Assembly: GCA_016840095.1 (NCBI GenBank)
Contig: JAEOSZ010000111.1
Coordinates: forward strand, 77,258-101,257
Direction of reading: 5' to 3'
DNA: 24,000 nucleotides
Origin: Candidatus Heimdallarchaeota archaeon
GTDB lineage: Archaea; Asgardarchaeota; Heimdallarchaeia; Heimdallarchaeales; Heimdallarchaeaceae
This document shows, in pieces, positions 922 through 24,000 of this stretch (within the stretch, counting starts at the first letter, position 1; every line of letters begins with the position of its first letter). The translations under genes were made by a program, and so were the position numbers. The notes beneath the pieces are model-generated. The model saw only the letters and a program-made list of their open reading frames with translations. It did not search any database and was not told where the DNA came from.

Positions 922-2094
922 ATGGCATCTGAAATTGAAATCATTGCATATTTTGAGACTCCAAGAGATCCATTGCCTTTAAGCTACATAGCTAAAGGAT
1001 TAGCAGGAGTTGAAACAATTATTGCTGCTATCAATCCAAGGGCAACTGAGGAAGTTATTCGAGGGATATTAAGATCAGCAAAGAAATCCAAGTCTGTAGT
1101 GATATTTGAATTAGCCTTAAGTGAAATGTCACTAAGTGGAGGATATACAGGATATACTCCCCAAAAATTCGCAGACCGATGTAAATCGGCAGCAGAAAAA
1201 GAAAAATGGTTTGCCTATTCTTTACATGCTGATCACCTTACATTGAAGAAAGGTACAGATGAAGAAATGGCATTTTTAATGATGGAAACTAAAGCCAGAA
1301 TTGAAGCAGGTTTTACAGGTTTTGCAATTGATACTTCTTTCCTCTTTAACAAAGAGGAAGTAACTGTAGCTGGACAATTGAGTGAAATTTTATCGAAGGG
1401 GCTCATTTTATTCCAATTTATCAAAGAGTTAATGGGAGAAAAACCTTATGGGCTTGAAGGCGAAGTTGGGGAAATAGGTATAGCTGATTTTACTTCTGTT
1501 GAAGAGGCAGTTCATTATGTTACAACTCTGATAAGAAGTGATATTTTCATTGATTATCTAGCAATAGCAAATGGGTCAACTCATGGAGTTAGTGTTGATG
1601 CTGAAGGAAAAGTCGTTCCACAACTGGGAATCAATGTTCAAAGAACAGTGGAGATTACTGAAGAATTTAAGAAATTGGGAATTGATACAAGAATTGCTCA
1701 ACATGGAATTACTGGTACTCCTGTTGAAGTCATAGCTTCAACTTTCCCTCATGGTAGCATAGCAAAAGGAAATATAGGCACATTCTGGCAAAGACTTGTT
1801 CAAGATGTACTTGCCAAATATGAACCTGAGCTTTATGGCAGAATAAAAAGTTGGGTTCTTGAAAAATATGGAAAACCGGATGTTGATGAACATAAAACCT
1901 TTGCAAAAAACTCTAAATATGCTTGGAAAGAATTCTTCAATGAAGTTGAGAATATTAGTGAAGAAGCTAAACAAGCTATAATCACACAAGCTGAAGCTGA
2001 TATGGATGAATTCATAAAAGCTTTAAAGATGGAAAATACAGCCAGTTATTGCATAAAATATATGGTTGATAACTTCCTCACAAATACATACTAA
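922..2094 (+). CDS. Class II (metal-dependent) fructose/ketose-bisphosphate aldolase family protein
   Basis: 390-aa ORF with an ATG start. The class II aldolase motifs appear in the expected order: LHADH (HxDH zinc/catalytic), FAIDTS, GLEGEVGEIG (E. coli FbaA has EIELG), IANGSTHGV (GNVHG), AQHGITGTP (HGGSG), KGNIGT (KMNIDT). Confidence 0.75.
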   Translation: MASEIEIIAYFETPRDPLPLSYIAKGLAGVETIIAAINPRATEEVIRGILRSAKKSKSVVIFELALSEMSLSGGYTGYTPQKFADRCKSAAEKEKWFAYSLHADHLTLKKGTDEEMAFLMMETKARIEAGFTGFAIDTSFLFNKEEVTVAGQLSEILSKGLILFQFIKELMGEKPYGLEGEVGEIGIADFTSVEEAVHYVTTLIRSDIFIDYLAIANGSTHGVSVDAEGKVVPQLGINVQRTVEITEEFKKLGIDTRIAQHGITGTPVEVIASTFPHGSIAKGNIGTFWQRLVQDVLAKYEPELYGRIKSWVLEKYGKPDVDEHKTFAKNSKYAWKEFFNEVENISEEAKQAIITQAEADMDEFIKALKMENTASYCIKYMVDNFLTNTY

Positions 2095-2104
2095 GGTCAG
2101 AAAA

Positions 2105-3022
2105 ATGTCTATATTGAAATATCACACACTTGAAGCGTACTTAGAAGATATACCAGAAGATGATCTCAGAGAACTAGTAAGAGAAATAATTGATATTAGT
2201 CTAGATGTACCAAAACAGATACTAACTTTTCTAATAGGAGAAAATGATTATTCAGGGATTATCAACATCTCTGGTGATGAACAATTAAGTCTAGATATCG
2301 CAACACAGGAATTATTCATGCAAAGAATTCCAAACAATCTCTATTCTCTATTGCTGGGTGAAGAGACAGATGAAAATAGCATAATGGAAGGAACAGGAAA
2401 CTTAATCGTTTTAGGTGATTTCATTGATGGTTCTTCCATTATTAGAACAAGGAGTCCTGGAGCAATAGTCAATATTATTGATCAAGAAGGTCATACTCAT
2501 GCAGCTTTAACAGTAAGCTTCACTTTGTTCTTGCGTTTTGATCTGGCCACAGAGTTGGGTTTCATTCAATTTATTTATGATGGAGAGAAGTTTCGAGTAA
2601 TTAGAGATGAACTAGATATCAGTCCAAGTAAAAGCCCTGTTTTTGGATTGGGTGGAAAATATAATGATCATTCTGCAAAACAAAAGCTATTCGTGGATGC
2701 TCTGGATATAAAAGGAAAGAACAGATATGGAGGATGTATGGTCCAAGACATGAATAATGTTTTTGAAAAAACTGGTGTCTTCGGATATTTTGCTCCAAAA
2801 CTTAGATTCTGCTATGAGATTATACCTTATCTTTATATCTTATCCAAAGTCAATGGAGATGGATTTTATATTACTGCAGATGGACATGAAATCAAATTCG
2901 AACGAATAAAACCATTAGATGTAAACAAACTTACCTCTATGCACTATCTGCATCAAAGAGCTGGTTTTGTTGGTGGATCTAAGGATTTAATAGAACTTTG
3001 GTTCAAAATAGAAGATCTCTAA
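2105..3022 (+). CDS. Divergent class I fructose-1,6-bisphosphatase-like phosphatase (FBPase/IMPase superfamily)
   Basis: The track ORF starts at a TTG at 2066 and overlaps the upstream gene. The ATG at 2105 (MSILKYHTLEAY) is the more plausible start. Motifs match class I FBPase: INISGDEQLSLDIATQELF (NVTGDQVKKLDVLSNDL), LLLGEETDE (acidic metal site), LGDFIDGSSII (DPLDGSSNI), RYGGCMVQDMNNVF...GVFGY (RYIGSMVADVHRTL..GGIFLY), KLRFCYEIIPYLYILSKVNG (KLRLLYEANPMAFLVEQAGG). Confidence 0.65.
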   Translation: MSILKYHTLEAYLEDIPEDDLRELVREIIDISLDVPKQILTFLIGENDYSGIINISGDEQLSLDIATQELFMQRIPNNLYSLLLGEETDENSIMEGTGNLIVLGDFIDGSSIIRTRSPGAIVNIIDQEGHTHAALTVSFTLFLRFDLATELGFIQFIYDGEKFRVIRDELDISPSKSPVFGLGGKYNDHSAKQKLFVDALDIKGKNRYGGCMVQDMNNVFEKTGVFGYFAPKLRFCYEIIPYLYILSKVNGDGFYITADGHEIKFERIKPLDVNKLTSMHYLHQRAGFVGGSKDLIELWFKIEDL

Positions 3023-3030
3023 AACCCATA

Positions 3031-3055
3031 TTTTCTTTTTATTTTATTATTTTTT
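3031..3055 (+). terminator. T-rich tract, a possible archaeal intrinsic terminator after the aldolase/FBPase-like pair
   Basis: ttttctttttattttattatttttt begins 9 nt after the TAA at 3020-3022. Oligo-T runs act as archaeal RNAP termination signals. No experimental support. Confidence 0.3.
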
Positions 3056-3125
3056 CAAGGTTCTTGAGTAAAACTTTTAATTAGGAAAATATAATATGTA
3101 TTAACGACCCGTATTATTTACTTAA

Positions 3126-4241
3126 ATGTTTAGGTGCGTGCATTTGGTTAAAACTACAATAAGTCTAATTAAAGCTGACATAGGATCAAGTCCTGGTCAT
3201 GTTACTGTTTATGAGCCTTTAATGGCTAGAGCGGAAGAACTAATGGAAACGGCTAAGGATGAAAATATCATTCTAGATTTCGTTGTGTTCAATGCTGGTG
3301 ATGATACTGAACTCCTTCTATCTCACATTAAAGGAGTTGATAATGAAGTTATACATAAGCTTGCTTGGGATACTTTTATGACGCTTGGTAATGAAGCAAG
3401 AGAAATTGGTCTTTATGGAGCGGGGCAAGATCTCTTGAAAGATACATTTTCAGGTAATATAAAGGGTATGGGACCTGGATGTGCTGAATTTGAGTTTGAG
3501 GAACGTCCAGCTGAACCTCTTTTAGTTTTTGCTATGGATAAAACTGAACCTGGTGCATTCAATTATCCTATATTTCAAATGTTTGCTAATCCGTTTAATA
3601 CTGCTGGATTAGTTATTGATCCAAATATGCATGATGGTTTTTCCTTCACTGTTATGGATGTTTATATTAGTAAATTCGTTGAATTAAGTTGTCCCGAACA
3701 AATGTATGACCTACTTGCATTAATTGGTGCGCCAGGAAAATATGTTGTCAAATATGTAGATAGCAAGAATTCAGACATCGGAAGAGCAGCAGCAATATCC
3801 ACAGATAAACTATCTTTAGTAGCAGGAAAGTATATCGGAAAAGATGATCCTGTTGCTGTGGTTAGAAGTCAAAGTGGATTTCCTGCAGTAGGTGAGATAG
3901 TTGAAGCATTTACTTTAGGACATCTAGTATCTGGTTGGATGCGAGGTTCTCATCGTGGTCCTCTCATGCCTGTACCTTTGGATTATAGTCAGTGTGTTAG
4001 ATTTGATGGCCCCCCTAGAGTGGTTGGATTAGGTTTTCAATTGAAAAATGGTATGTTTAAAGGAGGGGTGGATCTCTTTGATGATCCATCATTCGATCCT
4101 ACACGAGCAAGAGCAAATGAAATTGCTGAATACATGCGCCGTCATGGACCATTTGAACCTGGTCGTCTTCCTCTAAGTGAGATGGAATATACTACTTTGC
4201 CTGGAGTATTGAAAAAACTTGAAGATAAATTTCATGATTAG
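3126..4241 (+). CDS. fbp: Bifunctional fructose-1,6-bisphosphate aldolase/phosphatase (archaeal type V FBPase)
   Basis: Near full-length similarity to the remembered Sulfolobus FBPA/P sequence: KTTISLIKADIGS, LYGAGQDLLKDTFSGNIKGMGPG, DKTEPGAFNYPIFQMFANPFNTAGLVIDP, GKYIGKDDPV, GWMRGSHRGPLMPV, RFDGPPRVVGLGFQLKNG, DLFDDPSFD, YMRRHGPFEP, EMEYTTLP. The true start could be the in-frame TTG at 3144, which gives MVKTTIS, the typical family N-terminus. Confidence 0.9.
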   Translation: MFRCVHLVKTTISLIKADIGSSPGHVTVYEPLMARAEELMETAKDENIILDFVVFNAGDDTELLLSHIKGVDNEVIHKLAWDTFMTLGNEAREIGLYGAGQDLLKDTFSGNIKGMGPGCAEFEFEERPAEPLLVFAMDKTEPGAFNYPIFQMFANPFNTAGLVIDPNMHDGFSFTVMDVYISKFVELSCPEQMYDLLALIGAPGKYVVKYVDSKNSDIGRAAAISTDKLSLVAGKYIGKDDPVAVVRSQSGFPAVGEIVEAFTLGHLVSGWMRGSHRGPLMPVPLDYSQCVRFDGPPRVVGLGFQLKNGMFKGGVDLFDDPSFDPTRARANEIAEYMRRHGPFEPGRLPLSEMEYTTLPGVLKKLEDKFHD

Positions 4242-8771: not shown

Positions 8772-9122
8772 CTATCCAGTTATTCTGATGGATAGTACTC
8801 CTCTTTTATCTTTGATTACTGAAACTGCTTCATTTGGAGCAACTATCGTAAATCCTTTGTTTTTGGTTCCTTTACCAAAAAGCTTAGCCCATTTAAAGTC
8901 TTCTCCATTCTCGAATGAGAACATCTTGACACCAACAAAGTTTTTGTAATCAATTTTATTCATGGTTCTTTCAATAAGATTGAGCTCCTCAGTGTGAGAG
9001 AGCCCATCCTCTAGAATCAATATGCTATTCCTCATCACTTTAGATAAGATGTAACTGATTTTTTCTTCACTTGAAAGATCATCCGTTTCTGTATATGGAA
9101 TAAAATCTACTCTATACTTCAT
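8772..9122 (-). CDS. DUF2073-like small protein, the conserved archaeal partner of the upstream GTPase
   Basis: The ATG at 9122 is preceded by an SD-like AAGGTGA. A GTG at 9131 overlapping the GTPase stop (GTGA) is the alternative start. The assignment rests on my recollection that DUF2073 proteins follow this GTPase in archaea, and on size (about 116 aa). It has not been verified by search. Confidence 0.5.
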   Translation of the reverse strand: MKYRVDFIPYTETDDLSSEEKISYILSKVMRNSILILEDGLSHTEELNLIERTMNKIDYKNFVGVKMFSFENGEDFKWAKLFGKGTKNKGFTIVAPNEAVSVIKDKRGVLSIRITG

Positions 9123-9127
9123 CCTTT

Positions 9128-9742
9128 TCACCTTACCTTCTTAGCCATTTCGGCTATTTTATTATACAATTGCTCTATGCCATCACCCTGTAACGCAGAA
9201 ACAGGGATAACATGGTAGTCACAAAAAGCATTTTTGATTTCAACTATATCAGCATCAGGTAGATCAATCTTATTTGGAACTAAGATGAAAGGTTTCTTCT
9301 GATGTTCCAAGTTACCAATTATCGTAAAGTTTACCTGATCAAAAGGTGATTTTGCAGCATCTATCACAACGAGTGCTACATCCACATTTTCTAGAAACTT
9401 AATTGCCTCCACTATTCCTCTTGTTGCTTCTTTAGCTCTTTGCATCGCTTCTCCTGCAGAAAGTCCATGCTTCATGAATTCTTTTGGATTTACAGAGGAT
9501 GCTATACCAGGCATATCTATTAGCGTAAGATCTAGAGATGTTCCATTTGAAGAGAAGTTAACCTTCTCAAGCTTCTGAATTGTTCTAGTCTCGTGTGGAA
9601 TTTCACTGACAGTTCCAACTTCTTGCTCAGCCCAATCTATTCCAATTTTGTTTGCAAGAGTGGTTTTACCAGCATTTACTTCACCGTAGAACCCCAAATT
9701 TATTGATTTTGGCTTTGATTTCAGCCACAATCTCCATGACAA
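9128..9742 (-). CDS. Small GTP-binding protein (Era/EngB-like TRAFAC GTPase; resembles the haloarchaeal OapA type)
   Basis: G1 GEVNAGKTT, G3 DMPG, G4 NKID and G5 SAL appear in the correct order. There is no in-frame ATG near the N-terminus. The start is a TTG at 9742 or 9730. Confidence 0.8.
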   Translation of the reverse strand: MSWRLWLKSKPKSINLGFYGEVNAGKTTLANKIGIDWAEQEVGTVSEIPHETRTIQKLEKVNFSSNGTSLDLTLIDMPGIASSVNPKEFMKHGLSAGEAMQRAKEATRGIVEAIKFLENVDVALVVIDAAKSPFDQVNFTIIGNLEHQKKPFILVPNKIDLPDADIVEIKNAFCDYHVIPVSALQGDGIEQLYNKIAEMAKKVR

Positions 9743-9943: not shown

Positions 9944-11011
9944 ATGGGTGCTAGTATCAAAGTATGGTTGAGATTTCTTTGGCAGAACAAATTCAACATC
10001 AGCTGGAAATATATCCCGCGAGCATTTGCAATAACGTTGGTTACAGCATTATTTACACCTCTTATAATCTATGAACACCTAAGATTTAATCGTAAAGTTA
10101 GAAGAACAGAGATTAAGGAACCCCCAGTATTTATTATGGGTCATTGGAGAACTGGAACAACTCACTTACAAAATCTCCTCCTCCTCGACGATAAATATGG
10201 ATACTTAGATCTAGTTGAAGCAACTTTTCCTCATCTAATGCTAGGAAGTTACAAGTTTATTGCAGCAGTAATGAAACCATTAATTCCTGCAACTCGTCCC
10301 ATGGATAACATGTCCATGACTGCAGCAACACCACAAGAACATGAGTTTGCCATAGTTGATCTATGTTTACTCTCCCCACAGTCAGGTTTGTTCTTTCCAG
10401 ATAATAGAGACAGTTATCTTAGGTTTGGTACTTTTGAAGAAGCTTCAGAAGAAGAAATTAATGAGTGGAAAGAAAACCTAATGTTCTATTTGAAAAAATT
10501 AACATATAAGGAAAAAGGCAAACCATTACTTCTAAAAAACCCTCTAGATACATATAGAATCAAGCTTCTCTTAGAGCTCTTTCCAGATGCTAAATTCATC
10601 AACATTTATAGAAACCCATACAAAGTCTTTTTCTCAACTGTTAAGCTCCATAAAACCAATACACACTTGTTTTGGCTACAAAAACCGGATTATGAACTTT
10701 ATGATTTCATTCTTGATTTATATGTTGAAATTTATGACAAGTTCTACAAAGATTTTGATTTGATTCCAAAAGAGCAGATTATTGAAATAAAATATGAGGA
10801 TCTTATTGCAAACCCACTAGATGAATTATCCAAAATATACAACTATCTTAACCTAGGTGATTTTGAGCAAGTGAAAAACAAAGTTGAGACTTATCTCTAT
10901 TCTTTGAATGACTATAAGGTTGGAAATTATGAAATATCAAAGAAAGATAAAGAGCTTATTTACTCAAGATGGAATGAAACCATTGACAGGTGGGGTTATG
11001 AAAAACCCTAA
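9944..11011 (+). CDS. Sulfotransferase family protein (bacterial Sulfotransfer_3-like) with an N-terminal membrane anchor
   Basis: PAPS 5'-phosphosulfate-binding loop GHWRTGTTHLQNLL. The later segment LLLKNPLDTYRIKLLLELFPDAKFINIYRNPYKV is the 3'-phosphate-binding region. The N-terminal hydrophobic helix is AFAITLVTALFTPLIIY. The track start is a GTG at 9926; the ATG at 9944 is preferred. Confidence 0.7.
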   Translation: MGASIKVWLRFLWQNKFNISWKYIPRAFAITLVTALFTPLIIYEHLRFNRKVRRTEIKEPPVFIMGHWRTGTTHLQNLLLLDDKYGYLDLVEATFPHLMLGSYKFIAAVMKPLIPATRPMDNMSMTAATPQEHEFAIVDLCLLSPQSGLFFPDNRDSYLRFGTFEEASEEEINEWKENLMFYLKKLTYKEKGKPLLLKNPLDTYRIKLLLELFPDAKFINIYRNPYKVFFSTVKLHKTNTHLFWLQKPDYELYDFILDLYVEIYDKFYKDFDLIPKEQIIEIKYEDLIANPLDELSKIYNYLNLGDFEQVKNKVETYLYSLNDYKVGNYEISKKDKELIYSRWNETIDRWGYEKP

Positions 11012-11029
11012 AAACTATCAGTAAACGTT

Positions 11030-12196
11030 TTACAAGCAAACCATATCTTTTGGGGTATTTGATAATCGAATTACACCATCTTTAGTAACAACACAATCAT
11101 CTTCTAAACGAATACCAAAATCTCCAGCAAAGTATAAACCAGGTTCTACAGTTATTACAGAGTTTTCAAGTAATTCTTTAGCAGGTCTTTCTGGATAAGC
11201 TCTATAAATACCCACTCCGATATCATGTGTCTCAATACCAATTGGGTGACCTGTTGAGTGAATATACAACTTCTCATGATCATATCCATATTCTTCAAAC
11301 TTATCTCGAACTGCCATTTCTACATCATGAGAAGAAACTCCTGCTCTAATTTTTGTGTATGCAGCTTCTTTTGCTTCATGTACAGCTTCATGTGCTCTAA
11401 GAACTTCTTCTTTTGGTTTGTTACCTATCCAATATGTGTGAGTAATGTCTGAATTAGACATCTCGTAGGCTACTCCATAATCAATTAAAAGCACTTGATT
11501 TTTCTCTATCTTCCCTGTTCCTGCTTTATGGTGAGGTATAGCTGCATTTGGTCCTGATGCTACAATGGGCTCAAAAGCTACTCCCCCTCTTTTGTTACAT
11601 TCAAATTCTATTATAGCTGCTAATTCTTTTTCAATCATACCAGGTTTGATTAAAGGTTCAATAACCTCTTCCATCAATTCTTCAGCTAGCTTAGCAGCAA
11701 TTTTGTGGTTCTCAATTTCCTTTTGTGTTTTAACAGCTCTTACATCAAAAATGATATCTTTAGCAGAAACATAATTTAGATTTTTGTTCATACTAGTTAA
11801 CGCATTAAAAGTTCCACTGGTTAATATATCAGAACTAAATTTTGAAAATACTTCACTAGCCTCAACGTAATTTAATGCAACTGTGGATTTATCTAAGAAA
11901 CCATTGAATAAATTCTGTACTAGCTCTGTTAATTCACTACCTTTTTTGTATGCTTTGACTTCGTAAATTTCTTCATCTACTAGCATTGCTTCCATCTGAG
12001 ATGTTATAACTGATGGTTTTCCTCTCTTAGGAATCAGAGTCAAAGTTGGTGATGCAAACCATTTTTCTAGTAAATATTTTTGGTGTATATCGTATGAATG
12101 GTGGCAAAATACTATCCATCCATCTACATTATGATTGTCTAAAACTGCTTGAATTCTATCAATTTTTTCACTCAAAATCCACACATTCCTTAACAA
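11030..12196 (-). CDS. M24-family Xaa-Pro aminopeptidase/dipeptidase
   Basis: The pita-bread metal ligands are in order: LIDYGVAYEMSNSDITHTY (D, D), HSTGHPIGIETHD (H), VEPGLY (E), IRLEDD (E). The start is uncertain: TTG at 12196, GTG at 12184 or TTG at 12175. All three overlap the cofC stop at 12168-12170. Confidence 0.85.
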   Translation of the reverse strand: MLRNVWILSEKIDRIQAVLDNHNVDGWIVFCHHSYDIHQKYLLEKWFASPTLTLIPKRGKPSVITSQMEAMLVDEEIYEVKAYKKGSELTELVQNLFNGFLDKSTVALNYVEASEVFSKFSSDILTSGTFNALTSMNKNLNYVSAKDIIFDVRAVKTQKEIENHKIAAKLAEELMEEVIEPLIKPGMIEKELAAIIEFECNKRGGVAFEPIVASGPNAAIPHHKAGTGKIEKNQVLLIDYGVAYEMSNSDITHTYWIGNKPKEEVLRAHEAVHEAKEAAYTKIRAGVSSHDVEMAVRDKFEEYGYDHEKLYIHSTGHPIGIETHDIGVGIYRAYPERPAKELLENSVITVEPGLYFAGDFGIRLEDDCVVTKDGVIRLSNTPKDMVCL

Positions 12197-12788
12197 TTTG
12201 TTTAATGTTATCCGGTAAATAATCGTTCTTTTCTAAATCTATTAAATCTTTAAATTTGTCTATATCACTGTATGCGTTTTTACTTTCTAAAATCTCAAAT
12301 GATAATTCAAGTTTCTCAAATACATCTCTAAATCTTAAAGCAGAGTTCTTACCAAAAACTAATGGGAAAGTGTCTCCTTTATTGAAAATCAAAATACTAG
12401 TTCCATTGTCCTTAGTAGGTCCAAGTAGTATTTTCCTCTCATTATAATTCTTATCAAGAATAAATTGTAAATCTTCGGATTTAATTAAAGGTAGATCTGC
12501 CATAACAACAGTAATTATATCTTCTTGAATCTCCTTGAAGGCTTCATTTAATGATTCATTTAATTCATCCCCCTTGTCATGAAGTATAGAGAAATATCCT
12601 GAAAAATCTAATTTTTTCTTTTTTGTAAGGATATACAAATTTGCATCATGTTCAAGTTTAGCAATTTCATCTATTAGATTCTGAGTCATATGATGAAGCA
12701 GTTTTTCAACCGATGAATCTTTTAAACTGGATCGTAATCTACTCTTATCGTTTATTGTTCCTCTGTATGGTATTATTATTGCTTTCAT
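12168..12788 (-). CDS. cofC: 2-phospho-L-lactate (or PEP) guanylyltransferase, F420 biosynthesis
   Basis: MKAIIIPYRGTINDKSRL matches the CofC N-terminus (M..iIPv....KSRL). LNESLNEAFKEIQEDIITVVMADLPLIKSEDLQFIL aligns with remembered M. jannaschii CofC LNNAIKQAFEEIEDEEVIIIPADIPLIKKEDIEEIL. Confidence 0.7.
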   Translation of the reverse strand: MKAIIIPYRGTINDKSRLRSSLKDSSVEKLLHHMTQNLIDEIAKLEHDANLYILTKKKKLDFSGYFSILHDKGDELNESLNEAFKEIQEDIITVVMADLPLIKSEDLQFILDKNYNERKILLGPTKDNGTSILIFNKGDTFPLVFGKNSALRFRDVFEKLELSFEILESKNAYSDIDKFKDLIDLEKNDYLPDNIKQIVKECVDFE

Positions 12789-14539: not shown

Positions 14540-15490
14540 TTATTTTTTAGCTGTCTTCTTTGCAGTTGTTGTCTTCTTTGCAGTTGTTGTCTTCTTTGCA
14601 GTTGTTGTCTTCTTTGCAGTTGTTGTCTTCTTTGCAGTTGTTGTCTTCTTTGCTGCTGTAGTTTTTGGTTTAGCTGTAGTTTTTGTTGCTGTTGTCTTCT
14701 TTGCAGTTGTTGTCTTCTTTGCTGCTGCTGTCTTTGGTTTAGCTGTAGTTTTTGTTGCTGTTTTAGCTTTAGTCTCTGGTTTTGTCTCCTCTTTTTGTTT
14801 TTCTGGAGTTTCCTTAGGTTTTACTGGTGCAGTTTTCTTTGGTAGTTTTTTCTTGGGAGTTCCTGTTTCCACCAATCGTAATCTAGAAGTTGATTTTATT
14901 ACAACTCTATAGTAGGAACCATTTTCTCCCATATCTGGGTTTCGAACGATTTTGATAACATCACCAGGTTTTGCTTGTATTGCTTTTACTGCAGCATCAG
15001 TTTCTAGTATCTTTGGTATTTGATGTTTCTGAATCTGATATCTTTCCAAGAATCCTTTTATGTCTCTAGTTCTGAGCTTAACATGCTGACGAACTAGTTG
15101 ATGCTCAAAGATATTAAACAATGGATTAGTGCTACTAATAATTTCAATTCCTAATTTTACAGATTCCTTTTTTGCATAATGTGTTAATGGGGATTCTGCA
15201 ATTAGTAAGGCTTCATCTAGTTCCTCTTCTTCTTGTAATTTACCTAGAAGTCTGATTAATTTCACACCAATTTGAGGATTTTTTGGGAATCGTGCAATAG
15301 CTGTTACTGTTTCTTTTTCCTCACTAAGCTTCTTAGCATATACATCTAGAAAATCATCGTCTTCTTTTGTATCACTAATCTTAAATCCTCTAAACTCAAG
15401 AATTTCCTTAACTCCATCCACAATCCTCTTTTCCTTGGCTTTTTGTTCCTTAGAAGACAAGTAAGTTACCTCGGCATCCTTAATAATCAA
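14540..15490 (-). CDS. rpoH: RNA polymerase subunit Rpb5/RpoH homologue with three parts: Rpb5-N-like domain (aa 1-125), RpoH/Rpb5-C core (aa 126-198), and a Lys/Thr/Ala/Pro tandem-repeat tail (aa 199-316)
   Basis: The core NIFEHQLVRQHVKLRTRDIKGFLERYQIQKHQIPKILETDAAVKAIQAKPGDVIKIVRNPDMGENGSYYRVV matches the RpoH/Rpb5-C consensus (HxLVPxH..l..eE...LL..Y.i...QLP.I...DPva...g.k.GdVvKI.R.S.taG....YR.V). See findings for the N-terminal similarity. The start is a TTG at 15490. There is no in-frame ATG in the first 180 codons, so the exact start is uncertain. Confidence 0.8.
   Translation of the reverse strand: MIIKDAEVTYLSSKEQKAKEKRIVDGVKEILEFRGFKISDTKEDDDFLDVYAKKLSEEKETVTAIARFPKNPQIGVKLIRLLGKLQEEEELDEALLIAESPLTHYAKKESVKLGIEIISSTNPLFNIFEHQLVRQHVKLRTRDIKGFLERYQIQKHQIPKILETDAAVKAIQAKPGDVIKIVRNPDMGENGSYYRVVIKSTSRLRLVETGTPKKKLPKKTAPVKPKETPEKQKEETKPETKAKTATKTTAKPKTAAAKKTTTAKKTTATKTTAKPKTTAAKKTTTAKKTTTAKKTTTAKKTTTAKKTTTAKKTAKK
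14549..14771. repeat. Coding tandem repeat: 18-bp unit GCAGTTGTTGTCTTCTTT in 5 perfect head-to-tail copies, nested in a 68-69-bp higher-order duplication
   Basis: Perfect copies lie at 14562-14579, 14580-14597, 14598-14615, 14616-14633 and 14634-14651, with a sixth at 14703-14720. Block 14634-14702 is repeated with a few changes at 14703-14770. On the minus strand this encodes (KKTTTA)n. Confidence 0.9.
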
Positions 15491-15537: not shown

Positions 15538-15888
15538 TCATTCTTCTTCTGTTTGAAATTTGATGTAATAAGAACCATCTTTATTTCGACTTATAATTGG
15601 TTTAGTGTCACCATTTTCTGTAAGTAATTTTTCTATATCTACTTCAAAAATTCCTTCACTTGTAAGTCTGATTGCTTCTAGTCCATCTTTTATATCAGTT
15701 TGATGAATCTCTTTCTCGACAATAAGATCAAGTTCTTCCTCTTTCTTCTGGTCAGTAGATCTTTCCTTATAGGTTTTGAATTTAAATGACCCACAATGTG
15801 GGCATCCATTAAGTAGAATTTGACTGTTCAATTCAAGTTCTTGTTCGCATAATGCACAAATTGTGATTTTATTAGATGGATTTGACAT
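15538..15888 (-). CDS. Zn-ribbon protein, DUF2072-like (resembles the haloarchaeal OapC type)
   Basis: The N-terminal ribbon CALCEQEL...CPHCGS is followed by an acidic linker and a conserved-looking C-terminal domain (GLEAIRLTSEGIFEVDIEKLL...GSYYIKF). ATG at 15888; the track uses the ATG at 15900. The family name is from memory only. Confidence 0.5.
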   Translation of the reverse strand: MSNPSNKITICALCEQELELNSQILLNGCPHCGSFKFKTYKERSTDQKKEEELDLIVEKEIHQTDIKDGLEAIRLTSEGIFEVDIEKLLTENGDTKPIISRNKDGSYYIKFQTEEE

Positions 15889-15916
15889 ATAATCACACAT
15901 TCTTCTTGTTTATCAT

Positions 15917-20853: not shown

Positions 20854-20889
20854 ATCTTCTATTAAATTCCACCTAAAAAAGTGGTAGAA

Positions 20890-21432
20890 ATGAAACAATC
20901 TGTCTCAGTACAAATTCCAGTTTATATTAGTAACTTCAAAACATGTAATCCAAAAATCTGTACTGCAGTCAGAGTGCTAAAATTCAAGAAAGCTAAACCT
21001 ATTTTAATAGAACAGATTAATCCAAAACATATTGTTTTAACTCCTTTTGCAGAATATGCTTTATCTCCTATAGATAGGGAAAGAGCTAAGATTCATGGTT
21101 TAGTTGGTGTAGATTGTTCGTGGAATGATATAGAGGGGGGAAGAAAAGCTTTAGACAAAGGAACTGGTCGAGCTTTACCGTTTCTTATCGCTGCTAATCC
21201 CAATAATTATGGAACCCCTTCTAAACTCAGCACTCTTGAAGCTGTGGCATCAGCTTTGTATATACTAGGTTCAGAAAAGCAAAGTAGAGCTATGTTGTCT
21301 TTGGTAAGCTGGGGAAATGAATTCCATAAAATTAACGAAGACTATTTGAAAAAGTACTCTGAAGCGAACGATAGTAGTGATGTTATTAAAATACAGAAAA
21401 AGATAATGGATAAACTATATAATGAGAAATAA
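20890..21432 (+). CDS. tsr3: Tsr3-type 16S/18S rRNA aminocarboxypropyltransferase (DUF367 family)
   Basis: CNPKICTAVRVLKF (Tsr3 N-terminal C.pkkCT..kL), GLVGVDCSWNDI (lD.SW), RALPFLIAANPNNYGTPSKLSTLEAVASALYILG (R.LP.LvAaNPvNYG.p.kLs.vEAlaAaLyi.G). The ATG at 20890 is preferred over the GTG at 20881. Confidence 0.8.
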   Translation: MKQSVSVQIPVYISNFKTCNPKICTAVRVLKFKKAKPILIEQINPKHIVLTPFAEYALSPIDRERAKIHGLVGVDCSWNDIEGGRKALDKGTGRALPFLIAANPNNYGTPSKLSTLEAVASALYILGSEKQSRAMLSLVSWGNEFHKINEDYLKKYSEANDSSDVIKIQKKIMDKLYNEK

Positions 21433-21498
21433 ACAGCTTTTCTAGAAAATGTTCAGTTACAGAATTTTTTTTAATATGTGATTTCATTGAAGAGTGAT

Positions 21499-22620
21499 AT
21501 GAAAATAGGAATTAACTGCTTTCCAACTGTGGGCGGTTCAGGTATTGTTGCAACACAACTAGCTATCGAACTTGCCAAAAAAGGTCATGATATCCATCTT
21601 ATTAGTTACGACACCCCATTTTTACTAAGGACTTTTAGACACCCCAATATTACTCTAGATTTGGTTGACATTATTTCCTATCCCTTGTTTAAAGATATTG
21701 GAGCTCCTTATACAATTTTAGCTGGTTCAAAATTGGCAAAAATCGCAGAAAAATCTGATCTTGATTTACTTCATATACACTATGCTATTCCTACGGGAGT
21801 ATCTGCATATCTTGCAAAACAGATTTCTAATGTGCCTGTTGCAATTACTGCTCATGGTTCAGATATACATACACTAGGAATAGATCCAGCCTACAATCCT
21901 GTTATATCACATGTTTTTGATAACATTGATGGTTTGTCAACTGTATCAGAATACATGAAAAGGGAGATGGAAGAAAAATTTTCGCATAGTAAGGACATCG
22001 AGGTTTTATACAATCCTATTGATATTGAGAAGTACAAAAGAATAGATACTAAGCTTTGTGATTTTAGAATACAATATGAGAATAATTTTGTACATGTTTC
22101 AAACTTCAGACCTGTAAAAAATGCTCCATTTATCGTTGAATCATTTGCTGAAGTTGTAAAAGAACATCCTGATACAGGTTTAATTATGGTTGGAGAAGGA
22201 CCTGAGAGAAAGAAATGTGAAGAACTGGCAAACAAATTAAATATCAGAGATAATGTTATATTCCAAGGAGTAAGGGTTTCAATCACTCCAATCTATAACT
22301 GTGCTTCAGCTCTAATATCTGCCAGTAGCAATGAGAGTTTTGGTTTAACTTTAGCAGAAGCAATGTCTTGTGAAACTCCAGTTATTGCACCTAAAGTAGG
22401 TGGAATTCCAGAAGTAATAGACCATGAAATTAATGGCTATGTCTACGAATTAGGAAACAATGAAATGTTAACAAAATATATGCTAGAATTGCTAGAAGAT
22501 TCCCGAAAAGTAAGAGAGATGGGTGCTAAAGGTAGACAAAAAGTTGTAGAAAAATTTGAAGCAAGTAAAATTGCAGATAGATATGTTAATTGGTACGAAA
22601 GAATTCTTGAAGAACTATAA
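21499..22620 (+). CDS. bshA: GT4-family glycosyltransferase closely resembling BshA (N-acetyl-alpha-D-glucosaminyl L-malate synthase)
   Basis: Collinear with remembered B. subtilis BshA. [36 protein letters not shown] vs [56 protein letters not shown] vs [39 protein letters not shown] vs [28 protein letters not shown] vs HISNFRKVKR. VGEGPE vs [42 protein letters not shown] vs [36 protein letters not shown]. ATG at 21499; the track starts at a GTG at 21478. Confidence 0.8.
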   Translation: [373 protein letters not shown]

Positions 22621-24000
22621 TCGAGCATTAATATATCCAATTCCTCCTATTGGAGAATCTTCAGAATAGTAGCGTCGATATGATGCTAAATAATCACTTA
22701 AACCTGTTACACTTGCCATGATGAACCAAGGCCAACTTACTTCTTGCCATTTGTGATTATCATCATACATTCCAAACTGCCAAGATTTGTATTTCTCAAT
22801 ATTACTATTTTGTTTATCGGAGATTTTTGTTATTTCTAACATTTTTGCTTCAATAATCTTTGCAAGATTACTAGATTCAGCTGTCAATTGTTCTTGTTCT
22901 CCCTTCCTTCTAGCTTTGGCTAATCGTCCTAAAGTTTTAAAGAAATCTCCTGCAAAAAGAGATAAAGTCTCATCTCCAAGCTCTTGATTTAGATTTTCAA
23001 TCCATGGAGTATTATATAACATTCTTGTATATTTTACATATATTGGAAACTGAAGGCCTATTTTTCTAGTTGCTGGAATTACTTGAGCATTGTAGTTTAT
23101 CTCTCCTGGACCAGAAACTCTGATGTATACTGGCATTATAGATTGAAGCAGAGCTTGATTAGTATCTAATCGAGGTACTAATCTCAATGGAAGATTAGAT
23201 AGATCAATGTTTTTTTTATCCACGACAAAAGAGTAGACTGTTTTATCGTTTGGACATATCCCAGTGAAGTAAAGTGAGTCTTCCTTATCTTTGCAAGATA
23301 ATTGAATCCTGTGACCATCTTTTGGACTCTCATAAAAGAAAGGAGCGTAATCTTCATCTTTCTTTGCAGTTGTAAACTGATATCCCAATTTTTCAATTGC
23401 TTCTGTAGCTTTATTAAATTCTTCAATATATTCAGTTCGTTTTTTGATAAAGGGTCTGTATCCATCAACTGATAGTTTCCTTATCTCTGGATGAGATGAA
23501 GGAAAGAAAACAACACCCCAATCATTGAAGATATTGGCTTGGATTCCCCAGAGTAAAGTTATCCATTCTCCTATATCTTTGGAAGATCTATAAGTTTCTC
23601 TAATGAAAGTGAGAATATGGTCTACTTTTTCTGTGAAAACCTTCTGAGAGGTTTTATCCAGGGAGGTTCTAAACTCGTTAAAGATATTTCTAATAATAGA
23701 AAGATTTTCTTCAAGCCATAAATATTCATTTGAAGCAATTTTGCTAGAAACTAAACCATCAATTGCACTAGTTAACGAAATTGGTTTGCTTGCAGATGAT
23801 TGATTATTGGGAAGATGAATGGTAGTGATTTCAGGTTGAATACTATCATGAGTATTAACTAAGAACATAGGAACTAAGTAATGATTTTTCATTTTACTAA
23901 CATCTGAGATTGCAGCAACTGTAGCAATTTTATTCCCAATTATACCTGAACCCCCAAAAATTGTAGCTTGTTGTCCCCCTAAAACTACTCCTTTGTGAAT
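22615..24000 (-). CDS. bshC: BshC-like protein (UPF0747; putative cysteine-adding enzyme of bacillithiol biosynthesis). Partial: the N-terminus lies beyond the window edge.
   Basis: The reading frame stays open upstream of the track's Met at 23892 through to position 24000: IHKGVVLGGQQATIFGGSGIIGNKIATVAAISDVSKMKNHYLVPMF. This aligns with remembered B. subtilis BshC [30 protein letters not shown]...VPVIPIFWVAGEDHD. Further downstream, IRVSGPGEINYNAQV aligns with AFIAGPGEINYWGEL. The 3' end overlaps the bshA-like stop by 6 nt (convergent). Confidence 0.7.
   Translation of the reverse strand: MHKGVVLGGQQATIFGGSGIIGNKIATVAAISDVSKMKNHYLVPMFLVNTHDSIQPEITTIHLPNNQSSASKPISLTSAIDGLVSSKIASNEYLWLEENLSIIRNIFNEFRTSLDKTSQKVFTEKVDHILTFIRETYRSSKDIGEWITLLWGIQANIFNDWGVVFFPSSHPEIRKLSVDGYRPFIKKRTEYIEEFNKATEAIEKLGYQFTTAKKDEDYAPFFYESPKDGHRIQLSCKDKEDSLYFTGICPNDKTVYSFVVDKKNIDLSNLPLRLVPRLDTNQALLQSIMPVYIRVSGPGEINYNAQVIPATRKIGLQFPIYVKYTRMLYNTPWIENLNQELGDETLSLFAGDFFKTLGRLAKARRKGEQEQLTAESSNLAKIIEAKMLEITKISDKQNSNIEKYKSWQFGMYDDNHKWQEVSWPWFIMASVTGLSDYLASYRRYYSEDSPIGGIGYINARL

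What the first reader, a model, noticed from the sequence alone, without database searches (positions are those of the whole stretch)
21499..24000. Convergent BshA-like and BshC-like genes: a bacillithiol-type low-molecular-weight thiol pathway in an archaeal context
Seen in sequence: the GT4 glycosyltransferase matches remembered B. subtilis BshA along its whole length, including blocks that are BshA-specific rather than generic GT4 (KIGI.C.P.VGGSG, HYAIP....AYLAKQ, H.SNFR.VK). The convergent neighbour carries the BshC hallmarks GGQQ...GG near the N-terminus and GPGEINY. Its frame is open to the window edge, so the Met at 23892 is internal. The two genes overlap tail-to-tail by 6 nt. Established knowledge: BshA, BshB and BshC make bacillithiol in Firmicutes, Deinococcus and (as derivatives) Chlorobi/Bacteroidetes. 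Archaea are usually described as using other thiols. The biochemical activity of BshC has been hard to reconstitute. Inference: this organism may make a bacillithiol-like thiol, probably through horizontal acquisition. No BshB (LmbE-type deacetylase) is in the window.
Basis: partly seen in the sequence, partly recalled or inferred. Interest (0 to 1): 0.7.

Follow-up and report, generated by a model that had tools for sequence, protein, structure and literature searches.

The report
Bacillithiol-type thiol genes in Heimdallarchaeon
An Asgard (Heimdall-group) archaeon carries a true BshA gene and a divergent, archaeal-type BshC gene tail to tail, so it probably makes bacillithiol or a close relative, but Asgard homologues of both enzymes were already reported in a 2020 review and the thiol itself has never been measured in any archaeon.

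Summary
bshA (21499-22620, +) passes the NCBIfam BshA equivalog model: 366 bits against a cut-off of 273.7. It keeps the known UDP-GlcNAc and catalytic residues. The convergent ORF (22615-24000, -) encodes residues 80-540 of a 540-aa BshC-like protein. The two genes overlap by 6 nt.

The window is collinear (82% nt) with contigs of Heimdallarchaeota AB_125. The pair is therefore native to an Asgard archaeon and is not bacterial contamination.

The BshC-like protein is not a standard BshC:
- It scores 113 bits against a cut-off of 265.8 on TIGR03998.
- It has no match to the BshC coiled-coil domain.
- It belongs to a separate archaeal clade (Heimdallarchaeia, other Asgard, Bathyarchaeota).
- Its N-terminal domain, the GGQQ and GPGEINY motifs and the predicted fold (top match 4WBD) are BshC-like.

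The bshA/bshC pair is conserved in most related loci with enough flanking DNA. In six deeper Heimdall loci a BshB-like PIG-L deacetylase sits next to bshA. AB_125 has one on another contig.

Asgard BshA and BshC homologues were already noted in a 2020 review, and NCBI annotates them as such. The verdict is a real but largely known pathway with moderate interest. The product is unmeasured, and horizontal origin is not shown.

The parts
21499..22620 (+). bshA. [quoted passage not shown] An alternative GTG start lies at 21478.
   Evidence: TIGR03999 scores 366.1 bits against a cut-off of 273.7 over profile positions 1-374 of 375. The GT4 Pfam domains are present. B. anthracis, B. subtilis and S. 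aureus BshA structures are the top PDB sequence matches, at E 3e-80 to 7e-69, well above all other GT4 enzymes at E 3e-17 or weaker. The protein is 92% identical to the BshA of Heimdallarchaeota AB_125.
22615..24000 (-). The 3' 1386 nt of an archaeal-type bshC-like gene: codons 80-540 plus the stop codon. The first 79 codons lie beyond the window edge.
   Evidence: The translation is 100% identical to P0001, a 540-aa protein. PF10079 scores 75.5 bits for the fragment and 94.9 bits for the full protein, against a cut-off of 27. TIGR03998 scores 90.9 and 112.6 bits, below its cut-off of 265.8. The AlphaFold2 model has pLDDT 95, and its top Foldseek match is 4WBD BshC at E 1.5e-20 and TM 0.69.
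22615..22620 (.). The 6-nt tail-to-tail overlap of the two convergent genes.
   Evidence: bshA ends with TAA at 22618-22620. The bshC-like gene ends with TAG, read from 22615-22617 on the minus strand. AB_125-type contigs show the same overlap; for example, L110 has the genes at 10001-11122 and 11117-12739.
21466..21476 (+). An A/T-rich TATA-like run (TTTTTTAATAT) about 25-33 nt upstream of the bshA ATG. It is a candidate archaeal promoter for a short-leader or leaderless bshA transcript. This is an inference.
   Evidence: The sequence was read directly. No test of function was done.
23722..23763 (-). The GGQQATIFGGSGII motif of the BshC-like protein (residues 87-100 of the full protein).
   Evidence: It aligns with [14 protein letters not shown] of B. 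subtilis BshC. G88, Q90, G95 and G96 are invariant across the 51 archaeal-clade sequences; G87 is not, and varies in deeper lineages.
22876..22899 (-). The SGPGEINY motif of the BshC-like protein (residues 375-382).
   Evidence: It aligns with AGPGEINY of B. subtilis BshC. G376, P377, G378, E379 and Y382 are invariant in the archaeal clade.

Best explanation
The window comes from a Heimdallarchaeaceae-type Asgard archaeon related to Heimdallarchaeota AB_125. Its convergent gene pair encodes the first and last enzymes of a bacillithiol-type pathway for a low-molecular-weight thiol.

Proposed steps:
1. BshA transfers GlcNAc from UDP-GlcNAc to L-malate and makes GlcNAc-malate. This is inferred from family membership and from the conserved sugar and UDP residues.
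2. A PIG-L/LmbE deacetylase encoded elsewhere in the genome removes the acetyl group. This is inferred from AB_125, which has such a gene on another contig, and from deeper Heimdall lineages where it sits next to bshA.
3. The archaeal-type BshC-like protein adds cysteine to GlcN-malate. It has a class-I-aaRS-like Rossmann fold. This step is inferred only, because the reaction has never been reconstituted even for bacterial BshC.

The pair is an old, vertically kept feature of Heimdallarchaeia and is not a recent bacterial import.
For: - BshA passes the equivalog cut-off.
- The residues corresponding, by identical spacing, to S. aureus H118, N171, K209, E280-S-F-G and E288 are all retained. PMC10361700 names these as GlcNAc/UDP contacts or catalytic residues.
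- The BshC-like protein passes PF10079, keeps GGQQ and GPGEINY, and its high-confidence model matches only BshC strongly (4WBD, E 1.5e-20). Class I LysRS is next at 9e-07.
- bshA and bshC-like are adjacent in most related loci with enough flank. These span proteins of 32-92% identity: L001, L003-L006, L089-L091, L093, L095, L097-L105, L108 and L110-L119.
- A PIG-L ORF abuts bshA in L005/L006, L100, L101, L103, L104 and L108. For five of these six the best NCBIfam hit is BshB1; for L101 it is BshB2 (52.2 bits, against 51 for BshB1).
- AB_125, whose BshA is 92% identical to the window's, has a PIG-L gene whose best hit is BshB1 at 94 bits.
- The G+C content of the pair (0.33-0.34) equals that of the rest of the window.
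- The window is collinear with AB_125-type contigs over 12.5 kb.
Against: - No thiol has been measured. [quoted passage not shown]
- The BshC-like protein scores far below the BshC equivalog cut-off and shows no CC_BshC domain.
- The Heimdallarchaeaceae BshA clade has replaced three residues that are invariant in all 72 other BshAs compared: H to T at residue 99, F to P at 173 and R to N at 208. The last two lie next to the N172 and K207 contact residues. The acceptor could therefore differ.
- The BshB-like proteins are all below the equivalog cut-off.
- I could not search the window's own genome for BshB.
- Bacilliredoxins and YpdA were not examined. The 2020 review found only two archaeal YpdA homologues.
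Confidence: 0.65

Rival explanations
1. The genes are the same, but the product differs. The pair would make a bacillithiol-like but chemically distinct glycoside thiol, with another hydroxy-acid or polyol aglycone, another amino acid, or a further modification. The reasons are that the BshC-like enzyme belongs to a separate archaeal clade and that the Heimdallarchaeaceae BshA has altered residues near the active site.
For: - There is a clear score gap between the archaeal clade and canonical BshC. The archaeal clade gives end-to-end matches of 857 down to about 210 bits. Canonical BshC gives 99 bits or less and matches only profile positions of about 5-470.
- PF24850 is absent.
- The clade has a Cys-rich insertion at residues 304-331. 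It reads CxxC...CxxC in some members, and B. subtilis BshC has no equivalent.
- H99T, F173P and R208N are specific to the Heimdallarchaeaceae BshA clade. All 72 other BshAs, and nearly all deeper Heimdall ones, keep H, F and R.
- The deacetylase gene is no longer linked to bshA in this family.
Against: - BshA still scores well above the equivalog cut-off and keeps 57 of 64 near-invariant columns.
- The deeper Heimdall lineages combine the same archaeal BshC type with unaltered BshA residues and a BshB-like neighbour.
- The role of the three changed residues in acceptor binding could not be checked, because the structural papers are not held.
Confidence: 0.2
2. This is not a thiol pathway. BshA would make GlcNAc-malate or another glycoside for a different purpose, such as a compatible solute or glycoconjugate precursor. 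The BshC-like protein would have an unrelated ATP- or adenylate-dependent function.
For: - The BshC reaction has never been shown in vitro for any organism (PMC5790435).
- The archaeal clade is only 16% identical to 4WBD in the structural alignment.
- Neighbouring genes in AB_125-type contigs include a flippase-like LPG_synthase_TM protein with a weak match to a GlcN-phosphatidylglycerol flippase model.
Against: - Tight co-localisation of bshA, bshC-like and BshB-like PIG-L genes recurs across lineages that have diverged to 32-45% identity. This is the same association that originally identified bacterial bshC (PMC5790435).
- Loss of bshC in bacteria abolishes BSH and leads to accumulation of GlcN-malate (PMC5790435).
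Confidence: 0.1
3. The pair is a recent bacterial insertion, or the result of an assembly or binning chimera, and is not a native archaeal locus.
For: BshA and BshC are overwhelmingly bacterial families, and a RefSeq survey found no archaea with the pathway (PMC12719100).
Against: - The G+C content is uniform across the window.
- The flanking genes are archaeal.
- The same gene order recurs at 82% nt identity in independent assemblies, including AB_125 and a closed 3.3-Mb Heimdallarchaeum endolithica chromosome.
- The nearest BshC relatives are all archaeal.
- Heimdall BshAs group together in a rough NJ tree.
Confidence: 0.02

Closest known systems
[quoted passage not shown]
   Same: It aligns over its full length with about 39% identity to B. 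anthracis BshA. It scores above the equivalog cut-off. It has the GT4 two-domain architecture, the GGSG loop, HYAIP, HG(S/T)D, SNFRxVK, ESFG and the E-x7-E pair.
   Different: It is from an archaeal host. The Heimdallarchaeaceae clade has replaced otherwise invariant residues: H to T at residue 99, F to P at 173, R to N at 208, Y to F at 8 and T to S at 147. It is not in an operon with bshB, unlike in B. subtilis.
BshC, putative bacillithiol cysteine-adding enzyme (TIGR03998; PF10079 plus PF24850; structure 4WBD)
   Same: It has the N-terminal Rossmann-like BshC domain and the GGQQ and GPGEINY motifs. Its length is about 540 aa. The overall predicted fold matches 4WBD at TM 0.69. It is genomically linked to bshA.
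   Different: It scores 113 bits against a cut-off of 265.8. There is no sequence match to the coiled-coil domain PF24850. Identity in the structural alignment is 16%. It carries a Cys-rich, zinc-ribbon-like insertion that has degenerated in the window's copy. It belongs to an archaeal clade of about 57 clusters at 50% identity that is distinct from roughly 1,900 lower-scoring clusters; the two of those checked are canonical BshC.
Asgard BshA and BshC homologues reported by Rawat and Maupin-Furlow 2020 (PMC7278568)
   Same: This is the same phenomenon: InterPro BshA and BshC hits in archaea, mostly Asgard, with the suggestion that archaea may make BSH. The window's genes are 92% and 82% identical to those of Heimdallarchaeota AB_125, a genome published in 2017.
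   Different: The review did not report BshB, gene order, the distinctness of the archaeal BshC clade, or the clade-specific BshA changes. Those are added here.
Mycothiol pathway (MshA GT4, MshB PIG-L, MshC CysRS-like ligase)
   Same: The logic is the same: a GT4 glycosyltransferase, then a PIG-L deacetylase, then a class-I-aaRS-fold cysteine ligase.
   Different: MshA scores only 71.8 bits against a cut-off of 462.5. MshC is a weak fold match at E 0.4. MshB and Mca score lower than BshB1 for the linked PIG-L proteins.

Membership tests
BshA (NCBIfam TIGR03999 equivalog) | Whole-protein HMM score at or above the curated cut-off, with end-to-end coverage | tested here: met
   The score is 366.1 bits against 273.7, covering profile positions 1-374 of 375. 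The next family, TIGR03088, scores 121 bits against 409.
BshA (NCBIfam TIGR03999 equivalog) | Residues that contact GlcNAc/UDP or are needed for catalysis (S. aureus H118, T120, N171, K209, E280-S-F-G, E288; PMC10361700) | tested here: met
   The window has H119, N172, K207, E279-S-F-G and E287, and T120 is replaced by S121. The mapping goes through the B. anthracis alignment, and the spacing is identical.
BshA (NCBIfam TIGR03999 equivalog) | Retention of columns that are near-invariant across BshA proteins, as a proxy for acceptor specificity | tested here: inconclusive
   57 of 64 columns are kept. H to T at residue 99, F to P at 173 and R to N at 208 are specific to Heimdallarchaeaceae and lie at positions invariant in all 72 other BshAs. 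The role of these residues in malate binding could not be checked.
BshA (NCBIfam TIGR03999 equivalog) | Enzymatic formation of GlcNAc-L-malate from UDP-GlcNAc and L-malate | not testable with these tools
   This needs an enzyme assay.
BshC (NCBIfam TIGR03998 equivalog) | Whole-protein HMM score at or above the curated cut-off | tested here: not met
   The window fragment scores 90.9 bits and full-length P0001 scores 112.6 bits, against a cut-off of 265.8. Other archaeal-clade members score 70-99 bits.
BshC (Pfam architecture PF10079 + PF24850) | N-terminal Rossmann-like BshC domain (PF10079) | tested here: met
   The score is 94.9 bits against a cut-off of 27, covering profile positions 21-376 of 380. 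The fragment scores 75.5 bits.
BshC (Pfam architecture PF10079 + PF24850) | C-terminal coiled-coil domain (PF24850, CC_BshC) | tested here: not met
   There is no hit at E up to 1 in four archaeal-clade proteins. Two canonical representatives score 100-130 bits. The model does have helices at residues 430-470, and Foldseek aligns the full length.
BshC (structure 4WBD) | Overall fold similar to B. subtilis BshC | tested here: met
   The model has pLDDT 95 and pTM 0.94. 4WBD is the top Foldseek hit at E 1.5e-20 and TM 0.69 in both directions, with 16% identity. Class I LysRS is next at 9e-07.
BshC (functional definition) | Co-occurrence and co-localisation with bshA, which is how bshC was first identified (PMC5790435) | tested here: met
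   The genes are adjacent in most of the related loci that have enough flank.
BshC (functional definition) | Addition of cysteine to GlcN-malate | not testable with these tools
   The reaction has not been reconstituted in vitro for any BshC (PMC5790435).
BshB (NCBIfam TIGR04001/TIGR04000; PIG-L/LmbE PF02585) | A PIG-L deacetylase present in the window or in the same genome | tested here: inconclusive
   None is found in the window or within 10 kb in Heimdallarchaeaceae loci, using a custom PIG-L HMM. The relative AB_125 has one on another contig (L018:4538-5254), whose best hit is BshB1 at 94 bits against a cut-off of 182.5. The window's own genome could not be searched.
Complete bacillithiol system | Detectable Cys-GlcN-malate thiol, plus bacilliredoxins and the YpdA reductase | not tested
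   There are no chemical data, and genome-wide searches for Brx and YpdA were not possible. The 2020 review found only two archaeal YpdA homologues.

The most novel reading that the evidence does not exclude
Heimdall-group Asgard archaea, the closest known prokaryotic relatives of eukaryotes, would make an undescribed bacillithiol-like thiol using an archaeal-type BshC. That enzyme is a separate clade: it has no recognisable coiled-coil domain and carries an ancestral zinc-ribbon insertion. In Heimdallarchaeaceae the BshA also has a remodelled site next to the acceptor. This divergent BshC might be more tractable than the bacterial enzyme, and could finally reveal the unknown cysteine donor of the BshC reaction.
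Probability: 0.2. Interest if true: 0.7.

Novelty: new member of a known kind. Interest (0 to 1): 0.35.

Why it matters
If the pathway is active, bacillithiol-type redox buffering extends from bacteria into Asgard archaea. That bears on how the archaeal relatives of eukaryotes handle oxidants and electrophiles. A 2025 RefSeq survey (PMC12719100) states that no archaeon has the pathway. The bshB-bshA-bshC clusters found here in Heimdall metagenome-assembled genomes contradict that statement for uncultured lineages. The archaeal BshC clade also gives a second, very divergent version of an enzyme whose reaction has resisted reconstitution for 15 years. The basic observation is already in the literature and in NCBI annotation, and everything here is inferred from sequence.

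Tried and rejected
- Exact look-ups of the window's BshA (both candidate starts) and of P0001 found no indexed contig. The window's own assembly therefore could not be extended or searched for BshB.
Because the scan is pattern-limited (VAHPDDEI, LAWMT[AS]GE), its failure to hit some Heimdall genomes says nothing about absence.
- The structural papers on BshA and BshC (Winchell 2016, Royer 2019, Parsonage 2010, VanDuinen 2015) are not held. The malate-binding and ADP-binding residues could not be checked against the primary sources.
- The sigma-70 promoter and intrinsic-terminator scan gave chance-level counts and does not apply to archaea.
- The conserved YfcE-type metallophosphoesterase near bshC was considered as an alternative deacetylase and rejected, because it is the wrong enzyme family.
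- The VOC/glyoxalase neighbour was considered as a FosB- or glyoxalase-I-like user of the thiol. It has only weak generic matches.
- The NJ tree of BshA has no support values and few named taxa. It is used only as a rough indication.
Full report
**1. What is in the sequence**

The ORF list shows a plus-strand ORF at 21478-22620 and a minus-strand ORF at 22615-23892. The minus-strand frame stays open to base 24000.

The bshA stop TAA (22618-22620) and the bshC-like stop TAG (22615-17, minus strand) give the reported 6-nt tail-to-tail overlap.

The window fragment equals residues 80-540 of a 540-aa database protein, P0001.

Homologues of the glycosyltransferase are 371-373 aa long. An A/T-rich TTTTTTAATAT run lies about 25-33 nt upstream of ATG 21499. 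I take 21499 as the start.

**2. Which organism**

The rest of the window is plainly archaeal:
- the origin-associated proteins OapB and OapC, plus a GTPase gene (9128-9742) next to oapB that I take to be oapA
- an Rpb5-type RNA polymerase subunit
- Tsr3
- the bifunctional FBP aldolase/phosphatase
- CofC and CofD
- a BpsA-type polyamine synthase

G+C content is flat at 0.30-0.36 across all 24 kb, including the pair.

The nearest relatives of both proteins are labelled Candidatus Heimdallarchaeaceae or Heimdallarchaeota.

The window's BshA falls in the same 90% cluster as OLS32137.1. That protein maps to contig MEHH01000068.1 of Heimdallarchaeota AB_125.

The window is collinear with AB_125-type contigs over 12.5 kb at 82% nucleotide identity. 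Amino-acid identity is 92% for BshA, 82% for BshC-like and 80% for Tsr3.

The locus is therefore native to an Asgard archaeon of the AB_125 lineage. It is not a bacterial contaminant or a recent insertion.

**3. The glycosyltransferase is a BshA**

- It scores 366.1 bits on the NCBIfam equivalog TIGR03999 (cut-off 273.7) from end to end. MshA scores 71.8 bits against a cut-off of 462.5, and every other GT4 model is far below its own cut-off.
- Against solved structures, the five best sequence matches are the BshA proteins of B. anthracis, B. subtilis and S. aureus (E 3e-80 to 7e-69). The next GT4 enzyme is at 3e-17.
- PMC10361700 names the residues of S. aureus BshA that bind GlcNAc/UDP or matter for catalysis: H118, T120, N171, K209, E280-S-F-G and E288. 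Using identical spacing in the B. anthracis alignment, the window has H119, S121, N172, K207, E279-S-F-G and E287.

One nuance deserves mention. Of 64 columns that are at least 95% conserved among 80 non-Heimdallarchaeaceae BshAs, the window keeps 57. Three of the seven changes are non-conservative: H to T at residue 99, F to P at 173 and R to N at 208. They are shared by the whole Heimdallarchaeaceae clade, whereas all 72 other BshAs and nearly all deeper Heimdall BshAs keep H, F and R. Two of the three sit right next to contact residues N172 and K207. I could not find out whether they touch malate, because the structural papers are not held.

**4. The neighbour is BshC-like but not a textbook BshC**

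Evidence that it is BshC-like:
- It passes Pfam PF10079 (94.9 bits full length, cut-off 27).
- GGQQ (residues 87-90) and GPGEINY (376-382) align with the same motifs in B. subtilis BshC.
- An AlphaFold2 model built on 51 homologues is very confident (pLDDT 95, pTM 0.94).
- The model's only strong PDB match is BshC 4WBD (E 1.5e-20, TM 0.69, 16% identity). Class I LysRS follows at 9e-07, then other class I aaRS enzymes and MshC at chance-level E-values.

Evidence that it is not a standard BshC:
- It scores only 112.6 bits on the BshC equivalog TIGR03998 (cut-off 265.8).
- It has no match to the BshC coiled-coil domain PF24850 even at E = 1. Two canonical BshC representatives score 376-428 bits on PF10079 and 100-130 bits on PF24850.

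A profile of the Heimdall proteins searched against 1.84 billion representatives shows a clear break. About 57 clusters match end to end, with scores from 857 down to about 210 bits. Scores then fall to 99 bits or less for the roughly 1,900 remaining hits, which match only profile positions of about 5-470; the two of these I checked (P0315, P0318) are canonical BshC.

Named members of the high-scoring group are Heimdallarchaeota, Kariarchaeaceae, Promethearchaeota, Candidatus Harpocratesius and Bathyarchaeota. This is therefore a distinct archaeal-type BshC clade.

The clade carries a Cys-bearing beta-insertion at residues 296-345. It reads CxxC...CxxC in some members (for example P0052). It has decayed to C...C/D in Heimdallarchaeaceae and to S304/C328/D331 in the window's protein. 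B. subtilis BshC has no cysteines there.

**5. Linkage says the genes work together**

I collected loci through exact-protein look-ups and one metagenome scan. In most of those with enough flank, bshA and bshC-like are adjacent. The arrangement is usually convergent, as in the window, and twice co-directional. The proteins involved range from 32% to 92% identity to the window's.

Within the window's family the order is fixed: Tsr3, then bshA, then bshC on the opposite strand, then a YfcE-type metallophosphoesterase.

In six loci of deeper Heimdall lineages a PIG-L/LmbE ORF lies directly beside bshA: L005/L006, L100, L101, L103, L104 and L108. For five of them the best NCBIfam family is BshB1; for L101 it is BshB2 by a narrow margin (52.2 against 51 bits). 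Best scores are 52-90 bits, below the 182.5 and 195.25 cut-offs.

No PIG-L ORF is in the window or within 10 kb in the window's family. AB_125 itself, however, encodes one on another contig (L018:4538-5254, OLS31904.1). It scores 94 bits on BshB1 over nearly the whole profile.

The three-enzyme set therefore exists in the closest sequenced relative, and it exists as a compact cluster in sister lineages.

**6. Mechanism proposed**

Shown here:
- family membership of BshA
- fold and motifs of the BshC-like protein
- gene linkage
- presence of a BshB-like gene in relatives

Inferred:
1. BshA makes GlcNAc-malate from UDP-GlcNAc and L-malate.
2. An unlinked PIG-L enzyme deacetylates it.
3. The BshC-like enzyme adds cysteine.

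The last step is the weakest. The BshC reaction and its cysteine donor are unknown even in Bacillus (PMC5790435).

I put 0.65 on bacillithiol or a simple derivative, 0.2 on a chemically distinct relative and 0.1 on a non-thiol function. Contamination or recent transfer is essentially excluded.

**7. Horizontal acquisition**

Nothing in the window points to a recent transfer. Composition is native. The locus is syntenic across species and present in a closed Heimdallarchaeum endolithica chromosome.

In a rough NJ tree, Heimdall BshAs group together, apart from the Bacillus and Bathyarchaeota groups.

The archaeal BshC clade has no close bacterial counterpart.

An ancient inter-domain transfer remains possible. 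Its direction and timing need proper phylogenies.

**8. What is already known**

- Rawat and Maupin-Furlow (2020, PMC7278568, section 13) reported 39 archaeal InterPro hits each for BshA and BshC, mostly Asgard. [quoted passage not shown]
- NCBI already names several of these proteins BshA and BshC.
- A 2025 RefSeq-based survey states that no archaeon has BshA, BshB and BshC (PMC12719100). The clusters seen here in MAGs qualify that statement.
- No held paper links bacillithiol with Heimdallarchaeia beyond the 2020 review.

The core finding is thus a new member of a known kind. What this analysis adds:
- the BshB-like linkage
- the delineation of an archaeal BshC clade that lacks the coiled-coil signature
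- the zinc-ribbon remnant
- the family-specific BshA substitutions

**9. Verdict**

Interest is moderate at 0.35. The finding is real, biologically meaningful for Asgard redox biology and possibly useful for the BshC problem. It is also already noted in the literature, already annotated and untested chemically.

Noticed in passing
window 20881-21432 (+); also L103:1745-2212, L104:9239-9748, L105:11616-12095: A Tsr3 (rRNA aminocarboxypropyltransferase, PF04034) gene lies immediately upstream of bshA throughout the window's family. It also lies next to or near the bshC/bshA pair in three much more divergent Heimdall loci. This may be simple synteny or may mean something; I have no explanation.
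   Followed up: partly
BshC-like protein residues 296-345 (window about 22984-23133, minus strand): The archaeal BshC clade has a beta-rich insertion with a zinc-ribbon-like Cys pattern. It reads CxxC...CxxC in P0052 and C...CxxC in Hodarchaeota-like and Kariarchaeaceae-like members. It is degenerate in Heimdallarchaeaceae, and in the window's protein it reads S304, C328 and D331. B. subtilis BshC has no cysteines there. The related CysRS and MshC use zinc to bind cysteine (stated from my own knowledge).
   Followed up: partly
window 21793-21795, 22015-22017, 22120-22122 (BshA residues T99, P173, N208): These are Heimdallarchaeaceae-specific replacements of residues (H, F, R) that are invariant in all 72 other BshA sequences compared. 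Two of them are adjacent to the GlcNAc- and UDP-contacting residues N172 and K207. They may signal an altered acceptor site.
   Followed up: partly
L110:12821-15552 and L114:3608-6339 (just beyond the window's right edge in AB_125-type contigs): Several genes lie upstream of bshC-like. Diverging from it is a 120-aa VOC/glyoxalase-family gene; this is the superfamily of FosB and glyoxalase I, but the matches are only weak and generic. Next come a flippase-like LPG_synthase_TM protein and a YfcE-type metallophosphoesterase. After those are IFT52-GIFT-like and Arf/RagA-like GTPase genes typical of Asgard genomes.
   Followed up: partly
window 14540-15490 (-), tandem repeat 14552-14762: The Rpb5/RpoH gene has an N-terminal Mrr_cat-like domain and a C-terminal tail rich in Lys, Thr and Ala. 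The tail is encoded by about 10 copies of an 18-nt tandem repeat (TTAKKT units).
   Followed up: partly
window 8772-9742 (-) and 15538-15900 (-): Genes for origin-associated proteins lie in the window: OapB, an adjacent GTPase likely to be OapA, and OapC. Cumulative GC skew reaches its minimum near 19-20 kb. A replication origin may be close by.
   Followed up: no
window 922-4241 (+): Three consecutive genes relate to fructose-bisphosphate metabolism: a class II aldolase-like gene, a class I FBPase-like gene and the archaeal bifunctional FBP aldolase/phosphatase (PF01950, 561 bits).
   Followed up: no
L007-L011 (Theionarchaea contigs) and L013 (Thorarchaeota): A tight clade of 226-aa PIG-L deacetylases, about 44% identical to the Heimdall BshB-like protein, belongs to Theionarchaea and sits next to a Clp1-type kinase gene. 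A Thorarchaeota ortholog also exists. Together with the Bathyarchaeota BshA and BshC-like hits, this suggests that bacillithiol-type genes are spread more widely in archaea than only in Heimdallarchaeia.
   Followed up: no
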